Part shown: positions 2,912-49,812 of the stretch, piece after piece
Layout of the letters: every line of letters starts with the position of its first letter
Numbering within the stretch: the stretch's first letter is position 1
Position numbers and translations under genes: made by a program
Origin: Eledone cirrhosa
Taxonomy: Eukaryota
NCBI GenBank assembly: GCA_964016885.1
Contig: OZ024758.1
Span: 10,850,001-10,914,000 of the forward strand
Direction of reading: 5' to 3'
Length of the DNA stretch: 64,000 bases
Notes under the pieces: generated by a model
The model's input: only the letters and a program-made list of their open reading frames with translations
Told to the model about the DNA's origin: nothing
Database searches by the model: none

Positions 2912-3095
2912 ATACTTTGGGAGGGTCATGTTGCCAATAAGAAACACACGCACCAGTTGCTTTCACTTCAATTTATTACAACCAGAAATTTATAAATTCC
3001 TAAATTTATAAATTTAATTTATAATAAATTGAAGTGAAAGCAACTGGTGCGTGTGTTTCTTATTGGCAACATGACCCTCCCAAAGTATAACAATA
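2904..3095. repeat. Inverted repeat, ~75-bp arms, TA-flanked; a single arm recurs at ~50478-50548
   Basis: ATTGTTATACTTTGGGAGGGTCATGTTGCC...TTCAATTTATTA with an exact reverse complement at 3022-3095. Confidence 0.85.
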
Positions 3096-7090: not shown

Positions 7091-7538
7091 GTGGCTGCCA
7101 ACTCGTTTTCGAGTACGGCCACTACTTTATATCCATGTAGGAGAACCCCTACCGATGCGCTGAACGAGTGTGACTTTTTAGTCCAGCCAGCGACTTGAAA
7201 ACTCTGGTACAAACACTACACTTGTGACAATTATTGACACATAGTGCTGGGCCCATGGTACCATGTGACGACAAGTGCAGAGAGATCTCCAGATATAAAG
7301 CAATGCCTGTGCCGTGAAGCTTTTATAGTGAGCAAAGGCACTGCACAAAGCCAGTCCCACTCTCTTAACCAAGATGATATTTACCAAAAAGAAGAACAAG
7401 TCAACATCATTGGATACCATCAGGGTTGCAGGTGTTATATTAGTTTTCCTTCTCCTAAAATTCTGCCTTGACAAAGGCTAAGGGGTCATCTCTCCCGGTG
7501 ATTTTGGATGGCCATTGACTCTTAAGAGCTCCTTTGCC
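7091..7538 (-). mobile_element. RTE-like non-autonomous element, 5'-truncated
   Basis: Reverse complement of ~30656-31106. Confidence 0.65.
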
Positions 7539-8212
7539 ATTTGACATACATACATACATACATACATACATACATACATACGTGTGTGTGTTTATATATT
7601 GTGTTAAATCGATCGTAGTATTTGTTTTGCGATAATTTCTGTTTTACCTTATCAACCAATAAGACCAAATATAACTAGTAAGTTTTCAGGAGCCATCGGC
7701 CGTGCCCGAACGGTTATTGACCTCGTGTTCTACATTTATGTTATAAATATTTCTAACATTGACACAAGGACAGTATTTCAGAGAAGGGTAAAAGCGAATA
7801 TATTGATTCTCAGTACTTTATTTATCGACCGCAGACGAATGAAAGTCAAAGGTGACTATGATGGAATATGATATTTAAACATTGGTCGTTGGTAAGAAAC
7901 ATCTTAAAGTATTTTGTCCAAATCTCTACTACTACTACTGCCAATCCACTGCACTTCAAACATAAATAATGGTGGTAGTGGTGGTGGCAGTAGTAGTAAA
8001 TGACAGGGGTTGTAACAATAACAACAACAGCAGCAGTTACAGCGTTGTAATAATATTCTCGTTAATCAAATCTATTGCACGTGTAATTCTTTTTTTAGTT
8101 ACTATTTCCAGGCATCTTTATCTTGTACATGACACTACCACATGTTATATAGATGGGAGGGGGGAGGCAAGGGAGGTAAATCTTGAGACTACCACAGAGA
8201 TGGAAGAAAAGC

Positions 8213-9261: not shown

Positions 9262-9300
<39 letters not shown>

Positions 9301-9303
<3 letters not shown>

Positions 9304-9490
9304 CGAAGGAAAAGTGGTAAGGAACCAGGTGGACCATAACGCACCAAAGTACTCAATACTTAGGGTAGTAGAGTGGGTAATAGGAGTAAGTAAGACCCCG
9401 ACGGCTGAGCTCAAGCCGTTTCGACGGCTAATTCTGTACAGAATTAGCCGTCGAAACGGCTTGAGCTCAGCCGTCGGGGTCTTACTTACT

Positions 9491-10475: not shown

Positions 10476-10878
10476 GATGACCCCTTAGCCTTTGTCAAGG
10501 CAGAATTCTAGGAGTAGGAACACTCTGATATAACACCTGCAACCCTGATGGTATCCAATGATGTTGACTTGTTCTTCTTTTTGGTAAATATCATCTTGGT
10601 TAAGAGAGTGGGACTGGCTTTGTGCAGTGCCTTTGCTCACTGTAAAAGCTTCACGGCACAGGCATTGCTTTATATCTGGAGATCTCTCTGCACTTGTCGT
10701 CACATGGTACCATGGGCCCAGCACTATGTGTCAATAATTGTCACAAGTGTAGTGTTTGTACCAGAGTTTTCAAGTCGCTGGCTGGACTAAAAAGTCACAC
10801 TTGTTCAGCACATCGGTAGGGGTTCTCCTACATGGATATAAAGTAGTGGCCGTACTCGAAAACGAGTTGGCAGCCACC
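10476..10878 (+). mobile_element. RTE-like non-autonomous element, 5'-truncated
   Basis: Matches 30706-31107 with few substitutions. Confidence 0.65.
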
Positions 10879-24249: not shown

Positions 24250-24254
<5 letters not shown>

Positions 24255-24445
24255 AAGGAATTGTGGTAAGGAACCAGATGGACCATAACGCACCAGAGTA
24301 CTCAATACTTAGGGTAGTAGAGTGGGAAATAGGAAAAAGTATGACCCTGACGGCAGAGCTCAAGCCGTTTCGACGGCTATTTCTGGACGTACAGAAATAG
24401 CCGTCGAAATGGCTTGAGCTCTACCGTCGGGGTCATGCTTTTTCA
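24250..24445 (-). mobile_element. Family A fold-back element
   Basis: Diverged homolog of 9301-9495, with inverted arms at ~24333-24444 and TA flanks. Confidence 0.75.
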
Positions 24446-24532
24446 TATATATATTGAGTATATGTTGGTTGTATACCAACACCTCAGTATGCAGATTGGA
24501 GCACTCAACTTGTCTATACCACACTAATTCGG

Positions 24533-24587
24533 ACTGCCTGAAGAGGTCACAGCCAAAGATGGCTGTCACCGAAATATATATAGCAGT
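24533..24587 (+). ncRNA. Minimal (PLE-type) hammerhead ribozyme
   Basis: ACTGC-CTGAAGA-GGTcACAGCCA(AAGA)TGGCTGTcACC-GAAA-TATATA-TA^GCAGT, followed directly by AATAAA (24588-24593). Stem I is 5 bp, stem II is 10 bp and stem III is palindromic. Confidence 0.85.
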
Positions 24588-24633
24588 AATAAACGAAGCT
24601 AAATTTTAAACATTTGACTTATTTATTTTACTT

Positions 24634-24688
<55 letters not shown>

Positions 24689-25211
24689 AGAGAGAGAAAG
24701 AAAGGGATTAATGAATATGAAATATTATTTTTAAGAAAAAATAAATTATCCAACACACCATCTGTTGTCGTTTCGATATTTTGTTGTTTGTTTATATATT
24801 TTTTATATAGTTTTATTTAGAATGTTTTTAATTTAGATTTTAGTTTTCCTGAAAGATCATTTATATTTACAATAAATAAAAACTTTTCAGTTGAGTGGTA
24901 AGGAACACCTGTGGAGAAATGGTTTGAGATGTTTATTATCTTGAGTAGCAAGAGGAAAGGAAATATAACGGTAACAACAGCAACAACAACAACAACAACA
25001 ACAACACCAACAGCAGCAACAACAACTGATACCACCACCAGCAACAACAACAACGACACCTACAACAATAACAAAACAATACAATGACAGTGGCAAGAAC
25101 AATCATAACGTAGAGTACACAAACAAAACGGTAGTAGCAACAGCAGTAGCAACAGTAGCAGTAGCAACAGCAGTAGTAGTAGCAACAGCAGTAGCAACAG
25201 TAGCAGCAGAG

Positions 25212-25965
25212 GTTTCTAATTTAGGCACAAGGTCAGCAATTTTGAGGAATGGTCTATAAAATCAGCCCCAATATTTGTCTGGTATTTGAATTTATCGACC
25301 TTTCAGTCGCATGTGAACTCAAGGACGTAAGGCCTTAACTAAATAACGTAACTGTTTCTAATTTTGGCACAAGGCCAGCAATTATCCCAGTACATTACTG
25401 GTACTTTATTTTATCGATCCCGTAAGGATGAAAGGCAATGTTAACCTCGGCGGGATTTGACTTTGCCTTTCATCCTAAGGGACGTAACTATGCTGGAAAG
25501 CATGGCGTCCGACCCTCTACCGATACTGCCAATAACATAATGTATTTTATTATACTCTCTAACGATTCTGTTAATATATTAACGATAGTTTCTGATTTAG
25601 GCACAAGGCCAGTAATTTTAGGGGGGTTGGTGAAGTCGATTACATCGATCTTAGTACTTGATTGGTTCTATATTTCACCAACTCCAGAGAGATGAAACAC
25701 AAAGTTGGCTTCGGCGACATTACAATACAGTGTGTGAAAAGCCAGAAAAAATACCGCAAAACATTTTGTCCGACTTTCTATCGATTTTTAAAAATAGGAG
25801 TTTAATGAAATTAGCTCCAGTAATTGGCTCATATTTTAATTTATCCGTACCGGAAGTACTAAAGGTAAAGTTAGCCCCAGTGGCAGTTGAGCTCAGAACA
25901 TTTCTTAATAAAATACCTGGCGCTATTTTGTCGGACGCTCTTAAACTTCTGCCAGTCCACCAACC
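25212..25965 (-). mobile_element. Cluster of four SINE copies of different ages
   Basis: GGCACAAGG tail and GAACTC (B box) motifs recur at ~25212, 25350, 25585 and 25820. Confidence 0.7.
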
Positions 25966-30302: not shown

Positions 30303-30345
<43 letters not shown>

Positions 30346-30384
30346 CAAGGACGATTTGTTAAGCCTTCATTACGTTTATTGATT

Positions 30385-30424
30385 GGTGACGCGCGTTTCG
30401 CTATTGATCAGCTCAAGTCGGACC
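30385..30424 (-). ncRNA. Variant hammerhead-like motif
   Basis: Minus strand: GGT-CCGACTTGA-GCT(GATCAAT)AGC-GAAAC-GCGC-GTC^ACC, then AATAAA. All three stems form but the CUGANGA box is atypical. Lies in a ~100-bp insert between (TA)n tracts. Confidence 0.5.
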
Positions 30425-30443
30425 TTTGCTGTTGTAATGACAG

Positions 30444-30501
<58 letters not shown>

Positions 30502-30530: not shown

Positions 30531-31105
30531 TGTATCCCAGTACAACCTGTCTCATGGTCGGGTCGTTGGCGACTAAACTGGCAACCCCACCAAGGTTTCT
30601 TGGTGAGGAGGGTGACTTTGGACCTCCTGCAGGACTAAAAACAAAACCTCTCAAAGGGCAAAGGAGCTCTTAAGAGTCAATGGCCATCCAAAATCACCGG
30701 GAGAGATGACCCCTTAGCCTTTGTCAAGGCAGAATTCTAAGAGAAGGAAAACTCTGATATAACACCTGCAACCCTGATGGTATCCAATGATGTTGACTTG
30801 TTCTTCTTTTTGGTAAATATCATCTTGGTTAAGAGAGTGGGACTGGCTTTGTGCAGTGCCTTTCCTCACTATAAAAGCTTCACGGCACAGGCATTGCTTT
30901 ATATCTGGAGATCTCCCTGCACTTGTTGTCACATGGTACCATGGGCCCAGCACTATGTGTCAATAATTATCACAAGTGTAGTGTTTGTACCAGAGTTTTC
31001 AAGTCGCTGGCTGGACTAAAAAGTCACACTCGTTCAGCGCATCGGTAGGGGTTCTCCTACACGGATATAAAGTAGTGGCCGTACTCGAAAACGAGTTGGC
31101 AGCCA

Positions 31106-31107
<2 letters not shown>
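30531..31107 (+). mobile_element. RTE-like non-autonomous retroelement, longest copy
   Basis: Near-identical to the copies at 7091 and 10476, sharing the 3' end GGCAGCCACC(AT)n. The AGAAGGAAAACTCTGA motif resembles RTE LINE 5' UTRs. No tRNA head and no long ORF. Confidence 0.65.
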
Positions 31108-40318: not shown

Positions 40319-40332
40319 TATATATATATATA

Positions 40333-40609
<277 letters not shown>

Positions 40610-41214: not shown

Positions 41215-41355
41215 ATTATTAGTGTAGACATGCTCGTGGAAAAGTATATCCTCGCTGCTTACATGAGTGAAATGTGGATTTATATATATATAAATATATA
41301 TGCCTATATACAATGTGTGTGTAGGTGTGTGTATGTATATATATATATATATATA

Positions 41356-41477
41356 TAGCGAGGGAAAAGTGGTAAGGAACCAGGTGGACCATAACGCACC
41401 AAAGTACTCAATACTTAGGGTAGTACAGAATTAGCCGTCGAAACGGCTTGAGCTCAGCCGTCGGGGTCTTACTTACT

Positions 41478-41481
<4 letters not shown>
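41356..41481. mobile_element. Family A element with inversion plus deletion
   Basis: The 3'-terminal segment on - is joined at GTAGTAC to the HHR half on +. TA-flanked. Confidence 0.7.
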
Positions 41482-41513
<32 letters not shown>

Positions 41514-47099: not shown

Positions 47100-47238
47100 A
47101 GTCCAGAATTAGCCGTCGAAACGGCTTGAGCTCAGCCGTCGGGGTCCTACTCGTTCCTATTACCCACTCTACTGCCCTAAGTATTGAGTACTTTGGTGCG
47201 TTATGGTCCACCTGGTTCCTTACCACATTTCCTTCATT
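47100..47238 (+). mobile_element. Family A element, 5'-truncated without fold-back
   Basis: Begins at GTCCAGAATTAGCCGTCGAAAC and runs to the shared 3' end. TA-flanked. Confidence 0.75.
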
Positions 47239-49119: not shown

Positions 49120-49298
49120 TAACGAAGGAAATGTGGTAAGGAACCAGGTGGACCATAACGCACCAAAGTACTCAATACTTGAGGTAGTAGAGTGGGTAAT
49201 AGGAACCAGTAAGACCCCGACAGCTGAGCTCAAGCCATTTCGACGGCTAATTCGTCGAAACGGCTTGAGCTCAGCTGTCGGGGTCTTACTGGTTCCTA
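49120..49298 (-). mobile_element. Family A fold-back element
   Basis: Homolog with apex TTTCGACG-GCTAATT-CGTCGAAA. TA-flanked. Confidence 0.75.
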
Positions 49299-49812
49299 TA
49301 TATACATGTATATAGATATTTGTATGTGTGTGTGTGTATGTATGTATGTATGTATGTATGTGTGTGTATATGAATGTATGTATACGCTACTTGAGTCGAT
49401 ATAGTGTGAATTAGATTGATATAGAGCAATTGATTATATTTTCTTCTTCTTTCCGATATCACTATAAATATTGATATCTTTCACTGGCACAAAGTCACAC
49501 ATATTTTGGGGGGAGGAGGGGGCTATATATTTTATATCGATTTCGGCTTTTCTAAAGTTTTTTTTCTTTTTTTCTTTCCACCATATCGACCCTTGAACCA
49601 TGAAAAAACAATACTAGCATTAGTGGGGTTTGAACTCAGTATAAGTCATGTCTTTTCACTCAGGGATCACCTTGTGTTAACAAAACTGTTTTAAATGAGA
49701 CTACCCAGGATTTTCAAAAAGTTTTGAAAATAATCAATTTCGTGGAATTTCGTAATACAATTATTATTATTATTTTTTTTTTATTATGCTGGTGGAGGCA
49801 GTGGAGGTTGGT

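What the first reader, a model, noticed from the sequence alone, without database searches (positions are those of the whole stretch)
24533..24593. Minimal hammerhead directly followed by a poly(A) signal, with (TA)n as its stem III
Seen: intact CTGAAGA/GAAA core, a 5-bp stem I and a 10-bp stem II. The stem III loop is the palindrome TATATA, the same sequence as the genomic target. AATAAA starts right after stem I, and a similar HHR-then-AATAAA order occurs at 30375-30424. Known: minimal HHRs with palindromic stem III cleave as dimers. Inference: self-cleavage and polyadenylation are coupled at the element boundary.
Basis: partly seen in the sequence, partly recalled or inferred. Interest (0 to 1): 0.7.

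Follow-up and report, generated by a model that had tools for sequence, protein, structure and literature searches.

The report
Penelope-type hammerhead upstream of AATAAA
This is one short copy of a very common repeat, likely the cut-down end of a Penelope-type jumping gene, carrying a self-cutting RNA motif of a published kind that is predicted to work only in pairs; its TA loop is likely unrelated to where the element lands, and cutting would remove the poly(A) signal from the upstream RNA rather than assist it.

Summary
In detail: a type I minimal hammerhead (CTGAAGA 24538-44, GAAA 24571-74, 5-bp stem I, 10-bp stem II with a C-C mismatch, palindrome ATATATAT) directly followed by AATAAA. 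None arose in 450 simulated windows, and two copies fold into the dimer. It lies in a ~184-bp high-copy insertion into (TA)n, made of a forward arm and an inverted downstream arm, the published Penelope-like layout. No ORF links it to a clade.

The interpretation mostly fails. The loop is not the target: it is fixed (+AT in 87 of 4128 reads); 0 of 25 mostly (TA)n-targeting Hydra elements have a TA stem III; D. virilis Penelope already has AUAUAU; an unrelated GIY-YIG element has the same loop with no TA tract. The cut lies 5 nt before AATAAA, so it would strip the signal off. The copy runs uncut 56 nt past the cut and ends without an A-tail. The second site has a CGCGCG loop and a defective 5' core.

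One open lead: AAUAAA follows stem I in 9 of 56 published rows. Earlier scan notes found the same kind on other pieces of this genome. New member of a known kind.

The parts
24445..24454 (.). (TA)n, left remnant of the target tract
   Evidence: Sequence; paralogues also run into TA here (loose ends before 24445/24454)
24455..24506 (-). Inverted arm: the far downstream ('tail') part of the same family, in opposite orientation
   Evidence: X7 contig 22 holds 24454-24506 on + and 24542-24616 on -, 62 nt apart. Paralogues continue with other letters behind 24506 (X1, X4, X5, X12)
24508..24638 (+). Forward, 5'-truncated arm carrying the hammerhead
   Evidence: Paralogues carry other letters before 24508/24511. 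24617-24638 was masked by the tool, so its match to the family is untested
24533..24587 (+). Type I minimal hammerhead; predicted cut between 24582 and 24583 (AUA)
   Evidence: listed read variants fall at the free N7, loop II and G-C to G-U at 10.1-11.1, with some G>A/G>T changes in stem II
24574..24581 (+). Stem III palindrome ATATATAT (positions 15.1 to 16.1)
   Evidence: Self-duplex -3.2 kcal/mol; +AT in 87 of 4128 reads, no deletion at 1% or more
24588..24593 (+). AATAAA, followed by CA at 24611-12 and a U-rich stretch: the layout of a poly(A) site, use untested
   Evidence: Sequence; layout recalled from general knowledge
24639..24686 (.). (TA)24, right part of the target tract; no A-tail before it
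30343..30446 (-). Second, unrelated 104-bp insert in (TA)n: hammerhead-like, with intact 3' half (CGCGCG loop, AATAAA) and non-canonical 5' core
   Evidence: paralogues not examined

Best explanation
The stretch is a type I minimal hammerhead motif inside a ~184-bp copy of a high-copy repeat that sits in a (TA)n tract as a forward arm plus an inverted arm, likely the truncated end (pLTR and tail) of a Penelope-like retroelement. Shown: motif anatomy, high copy number, two-arm layout, TA flanks, a fixed loop, copies that cross the cut site, and no A-tail. Inferred: a Penelope-type RT/GIY-YIG protein nicked the TA tract and copied an uncut, read-through RNA from two internal start points, about 56 and about 150 nt past the ribozyme cut, giving the two arms. 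Predicted: the ribozyme cuts only when two copies pair through the palindrome, and weakly; this solo copy is likely idle. The loop needs only to be self-complementary, and TA targeting likely comes from the protein. AATAAA is likely the parent element's poly(A) signal for its mRNA, an alternative fate to cleavage and to use as a template, not a coupled step.
For: Anatomy and chance tests. Dimer cofold. X1 laid 2081 contigs on 24447-24970; summed depth about 9e5 on the motif against 4.9 on the unique flank, roughly thousands to 1e5 copies (summed depth is not a copy number). Also laid in runs labelled organisms B, D and F (73, 22 and 9 records). Inverted arm. Inverted 5'-truncated copy plus tail is the described PLE layout (PMC8557442, passages; PMC3846280, passages). 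Internal RT starts, AT-rich nicking and use of unprocessed RNA were shown for an anole PLE (PMC11167929, parts 1-2). No fall in X1 depth at the cut: 742,876 at 24570, 770,201 at 24580, 961,176 at 24587. L018 shows the same ATATATAT/AUA/AATAAA layout behind a GIY-YIG fragment.
Against: No ORF is linked to this family: no whole genome was held and tblastn with the L018 GIY-YIG fragment found nothing in the window. Rfam does not score the motif. The arm geometry rests on one contig from another organism label. The inferred extension (~90 nt) is longer than the 30-40 bp tail described. With more flank, this copy's stem I is outcompeted (pair probability 0.03 in 24508-24690). The published consensus has an unpaired H after A9, which this motif lacks. 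Neither cleavage nor polyadenylation was tested.
Confidence: 0.72

Rival explanations
1. The family is a non-coding retrozyme-like unit, cut out of tandem RNA by hammerhead dimers, possibly circularised, and inserted by a Penelope-type protein in trans. This copy would be a partial monomer.
For: Very high copy number of a short stretch. Animal retrozymes are reported as PLE derivatives with many solo monomers (10.64898/2026.07.22.740005, part 1 and passages). A re-ligated circle would also explain copies that cross the cut site.
Against: No tandem copy in the window. Retrozyme hammerheads are described as canonical type I, while minimal ones go with PLEs (PMC7229834, passages). No whole-unit head-to-tail joint could be seen, but the laid stretch lacks part of the unit, so this test is weak.
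Confidence: 0.17
2. One reading: cleavage and polyadenylation are coupled and define the element boundary.
For: AATAAA abuts stem I and is followed by CA and a U-rich stretch. The same order appears at the second site, in L018 and L021, and in 9 of 56 rows of Fig S3 of PMC4209133 (counted by eye).
Against: The cut is upstream of the signal. The ends lie 56 and about 150 nt past the cut, with no A-tail. About 12% of reads have a spacer before AATAAA. 47 of 56 published rows and 24 of 25 Hydra elements show no AATAAA in the short flank printed. Ribozyme mutants did not change insertion in vitro for the anole PLE.
Confidence: 0.05
3. The TATATA loop matches the target because it pairs with the nicked (TA)n DNA and guides or primes insertion.
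For: Loop and target are the same dinucleotide repeat. One X4 contig leaves the motif at 24570 into a TA run.
Against: Copies do not end at the loop (depth). (TA)n preference is listed for 26 of 27 Hydra elements, and 0 of the 25 with a tabulated hammerhead have an alternating TA stem III (PMC8557442 supplement part 2). Naiads prefer (TA)n without canonical hammerheads. The second site has CGCGCG in (TA)n. L018 has the TA loop in one copy, TACGTA in the other, and no (TA)5 run.
Confidence: 0.03
4. AATAAA is only part of the AU-rich 3' flank of these ribozymes and is not used as a poly(A) signal.
For: The published consensus calls the flank simply AU-rich. With an assumed 50% A and 30% U, 9 of 56 is not significant (p 0.06).
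Against: With an assumed 40-45% A, p is 0.003 or less. The reverse complement occurs in 1 of 56 rows (Fisher p 0.016). The hexamer is kept in the spacer variant.
Confidence: 0.35

Closest known systems
Minimal and palindromic-helix-III type I hammerheads in pLTRs of metazoan Penelope-like elements (Cervera and de la Pena 2014, PMC4209133; main text parts 1-2 of 4 and supplement parts 1-2 of 3 read)
   Same: CUGANGA/GAAA core, short stem I, long stem II, palindromic helix III, AU-rich 3' flank, mostly solo copies, dimer model. D. virilis Penelope has AUAUAU; the Schmidtea row has an AUA triplet; G-U at 10.1-11.1 occurs in several rows.
   Different: 8-nt alternating palindrome (one TA longer than D. 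virilis), no unpaired H after A9, a C-C mismatch in stem II. No linked ORF shown. AATAAA is not discussed in the parts read.
Hydra-clade PLEs (Craig et al. 2021, PMC8557442; passages and supplement part 2 of 59 read)
   Same: (TA)n preference, canonical-core hammerhead near the 3' end, inverted 5'-truncated copies and tails, a member in Octopus bimaculoides.
   Different: Their stem III begins with AC and spans 9-10 nt in all 25 tabulated elements. The Hydra-1_oBim hammerhead differs in sequence. Clade not assigned here.
PAc / Poseidon_Ac of Anolis (Frangieh et al. 2024, PMC11167929; parts 1-2 of 4 read)
   Same: Two ends downstream of the hammerhead, AT-rich targets, uncut RNA as template.
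   Different: Tail of 30-40 nt there against about 90 nt inferred here; the ORF starts in stem II there, unknown here.
Animal non-LTR retrozymes (PMC7229834, passages; 10.64898/2026.07.22.740005, part 1 and passages)
   Same: Type I hammerhead in a short, abundant repeat.
   Different: No tandem array seen here; minimal rather than canonical motif.
Clec2 3'-UTR hammerhead (as described in review PMC6765202, passages)
   Same: Cut site upstream of a poly(A) signal, so cleavage removes the signal.
   Different: Discontinuous canonical ribozyme in a mammalian gene, not a dimer-type retroelement motif.

Membership tests
Type I minimal hammerhead (PLE type) | CUGANGA and GAAA core with NUH triplet | tested here: met
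   CTGAAGA, GAAA, AUA
Type I minimal hammerhead (PLE type) | Stem I of 3-5 bp and long stem II closed by G10.1-C11.1 | tested here: met
   5 bp and 10 bp; G-U at this pair in 2232 of 4096 reads
Type I minimal hammerhead (PLE type) | Palindromic helix III allowing a dimer | tested here: met
   ATATATAT; dimer is the cofold minimum; duplex weak, -3.2 kcal/mol
Type I minimal hammerhead (PLE type) | Unpaired nucleotide between A9 and G10.1 (over 80% consensus, not universal) | tested here: not met
   G10.1 follows A9 directly, as in the Marsupenaeus and Saccoglossus(2) rows and several Hydra rows
Type I minimal hammerhead (PLE type) | Self-cleavage as a dimer | not testable with these tools
   Needs an in vitro assay
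Penelope-like element (EN+) | RT plus GIY-YIG ORF linked to the repeat | tested here: inconclusive
   None in the window; genome not held; relatives only as short contigs
Penelope-like element (EN+) | 5' truncation with adjacent inverted copy and a tail at one end | tested here: met
   Junction at 24506/24508 and X7 contig 22; tail length approximate
Penelope-like element (EN+) | No poly(A) tail; AT-rich or microsatellite target | tested here: met
   absence of tails in PLE copies is recalled, target bias
Hydra-clade PLE | Clade-specific RT/EN sequence | not testable with these tools
   No linked ORF; stem III unlike the 25 tabulated
Non-LTR retrozyme | Tandem head-to-tail units and circular RNA | tested here: inconclusive
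   Single copy in the window; genome-wide arrays and RNA not examined

The most novel reading that the evidence does not exclude
Across many Penelope-like lineages a poly(A) signal is kept just downstream of the hammerhead cut, forming a three-way RNA switch. Polyadenylation makes the mRNA; dimer cleavage strips the signal and dooms the mRNA when two copies meet; only RNA that escapes both reaches the tail and is copied. The hammerhead would then be a copy-number brake, which would give these ribozymes a testable job.
Probability: 0.15. Interest if true: 0.6.

Novelty: new member of a known kind. Interest (0 to 1): 0.2.

Why it matters
As it stands it is one more copy of a published ribozyme type, and earlier scan notes already report this kind across the genome. 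The only part with reach is the cut-then-AATAAA order. The role of PLE hammerheads is stated to be unclear (PMC8557442). I found no paper naming this order (searches; two key papers were not available). If the enrichment survives a proper composition control, it suggests a simple reporter test.

Tried and rejected
Own-genome search and file: none held. Rfam: no hammerhead match at the main site. No RNA holder listed, which says nothing about expression. X6 laid 0 records. Exact motif scans of genome contigs and viral contigs: 0 loci each. Metagenome pattern scan: 71 loci. My first filter flagged 1, an apparent chance match. A second descriptor found hits in 7 of 71 loci: L018 is the only TATATA-loop case, five carry a CATG-loop family, and L023 looks like chance. 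A hairpin hiding AATAAA (24588-24626) was rejected: -2.3 kcal/mol, z -0.3, 63 of 200 shuffles as good. Read ends at 24526 and 24605 in X12 coincide with AATT sites of the RAD library and were not taken as biology. Earlier-notes look-ups by sequence and nearby place gave nothing. Lunse et al. 2017 (PMC5785218) and Arkhipova et al. 2017 (PMC5850863) were not held; either may already mention the poly(A) signal. Schostak 2008 (passages) has no occurrence of 'polyadenylat' or 'AATAAA'. The Frangieh supplements held as text gave no hits. Supplements of the bioRxiv preprint were not seen. In one search only 40 of 93 variant rows were shown, so low-level core variants are unseen.

Full report
Observation. 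The sequence and folds confirm a type I minimal hammerhead at 24533-24587: 5-bp stem I, CTGAAGA, a stem II of 10 pairs with one C-C mismatch, GAAA, TATATA, an AUA triplet with the predicted cut at 24582/24583, and AATAAA at 24588-93. The fold has z -4.0 (0 of 200 shuffles as good). My descriptor finds this one site in the window and none in 450 Markov-simulated windows. Rfam misses it. A monomeric stem III costs energy (-13.8 or -14.9 against -17.6 kcal/mol open). Two copies cofold into the double hammerhead as the minimum (-42.4 against -35.2). The palindrome duplex is weak, -3.2 against -13.3 kcal/mol for the CG palindrome of the second site. With more flank, this copy's stem I is mostly outcompeted (probability 0.03); the upstream GG-to-AA variant seen in 45% of reads restores it to about 0.65 in the model.

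The element. No genome was held, so paralogues were read from public runs. The motif lies in a ~184-bp insert, 24455-24638, between (TA)n at 24445-54 and 24639-86. It is single in the window but abundant in run X1: 2081 contigs laid, summed depth about 9e5 against 4.9 on the unique flank. That suggests thousands to 1e5 copies, a rough reading because summed depth overcounts. Records also laid in runs labelled organisms B, D and F (73, 22, 9) and not in X6. Paralogues break from the window at 24506/24508. X7 contig 22 carries 24454-24506 and 24542-24616 on opposite strands, 62 nt apart. So the left piece is an inverted copy of sequence downstream of the ribozyme. The two outer ends lie 56 and about 150 nt past the cut; the second figure rests on this one contig, and 24617-24638 was masked by the tool. 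Paralogues meet TA at the same left edge. An inverted 5'-truncated copy with a tail is the described Penelope-like layout (PMC8557442, passages; PMC3846280, passages). For an anole PLE, internal RT starts, AT-rich nicking and use of unprocessed RNA were shown (PMC11167929, parts 1-2). No ORF ties this family to a clade. The host looks octopus-like from recall and earlier AI notes; this was not tested.

Paralogue variation (raw RAD reads, X12; 40 of 93 rows shown). N7 A>T 115 of 3938; loop II A>T 724 of 4111; 24570 C>T 2232 of 4096, turning G-C into G-U; 24545 G>T 117 of 3976 and 24561 G>A 191 of 4081, which break stem II pairs. The stem III loop gains one AT in 87 of 4128 reads (2.1%, 16 starts) and no deletion reaches 1%. 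In 498 reads extra bases lie between stem I and AATAAA, with the hexamer kept. These reads sample only copies with both flanking AATT sites.

Is the loop the target? Probably not. Copies do not end there: X1 depth is 742,876 at 24570, 770,201 at 24580 and 961,176 at 24587; one X4 contig does leave at 24570 into TA. In the Craig supplement (part 2 of 59), 26 of 27 Hydra elements prefer (TA)n, and 0 of the 25 with a tabulated hammerhead have an alternating TA stem III. Naiads prefer (TA)n without canonical hammerheads. D. virilis Penelope already has AUAUAU (PMC4209133 Fig S3 text). Contig L018 holds two GIY-YIG fragments (Pfam PF01541, E 1.2e-5 and 1.6e-5), each followed by a minimal hammerhead. 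One has ATATATAT, AUA and AATAAA 2 nt after stem I; the other has ATACGTAT; the contig has no (TA)5 run. TA runs are also everywhere here: 211 runs, 3602 bases, and a neighbouring family uses them too.

Second site. On the minus strand, 30343-30446 is an unrelated insert in (TA)n. Its 3' half is intact with a CGCGCG loop and AATAAA 7 nt after the cut. Its 5' core is not canonical, and Rfam gives 14.4 bits against 34. Paralogues were not examined, so it may be a variant or a decayed copy.

Cleavage and polyadenylation. AATAAA, CA at 24611-12 and a U-rich stretch look like a poly(A) site (layout recalled). But the cut lies 5 nt upstream, so cleavage would take the signal away from the upstream RNA, as described for Clec2 (PMC6765202, passages). 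This copy crosses both sites and has no A-tail, so its template was neither cut (or was re-ligated) nor polyadenylated there. The order does recur. By eye, 9 of 56 rows of Fig S3 carry AAUAAA in stem I 3' strand plus flank, against 1 of 56 for the reverse complement (Fisher p 0.016). With assumed compositions p ranges from 4e-5 to 0.06, so A-richness is not excluded. Only 1 of 25 Hydra elements shows it. Searches found no paper naming the order, but Lunse 2017 and Arkhipova 2017 were not held.

Verdict. A real motif and a new member of a published kind. Earlier AI notes on other pieces of this genome describe the same kind of element; I used them as leads only. Interest 0.2. The one bold reading left open, a poly(A)-stripping brake shared by many PLEs, gets probability 0.15.

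Noticed in passing
window 24250-24446; also about 9300-9490, 40330-40495, 41355-41482, 47100-47235, 49120-49300: A second two-armed family with a near-perfect long hairpin (z -18), at least 6 copies in the window, mostly flanked by TA; its two ends lie about 85 nt apart. It shares the (TA)n tract with the hammerhead element.
   Followed up: partly
window 24548 and 24567: C-C mismatch in stem II. 24548 changes in only 41 of 3999 reads, and no repairing change is among the 40 rows shown.
   Followed up: partly
window 24508-24569: Joint from 24569 back to 24508 with three extra letters: depth 265 in an X7 contig, 7 reads in X12. Possibly a tandem partial hammerhead lacking GAAA.
   Followed up: no
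window 24521-24586: An 810-nt X4 contig of depth 40 holds the hammerhead and then about 670 nt unlike the window; possibly the path into an ORF or another subfamily.
   Followed up: no
L018 1-1254, minus strand: Two diverged GIY-YIG C-terminal fragments in tandem, each followed by a hammerhead, with stem III palindromes ATATATAT and ATACGTAT.
   Followed up: yes
L020, L021, L022, L029, L042, L062: A family of minimal hammerheads with an ACATGT stem III. Five loci pass the descriptor with AATAAA 31-33 nt after the cut, and L021 has it 9 nt after. Several loci hold two copies on opposite strands or in tandem.
   Followed up: partly
window 2917-3083: Long inverted repeat with an AT-rich centre, hit below threshold by plant miRNA models; MITE-like or two-armed insert.
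   Followed up: no
window 7091-7544, 10476-10878, 30651-31107: Young repeat family, 97% identical copies.
   Followed up: no
window 25212-25619 and about 20 other places: A very abundant ~200-bp interspersed family, up to 24-fold self-coverage in the window.
   Followed up: no
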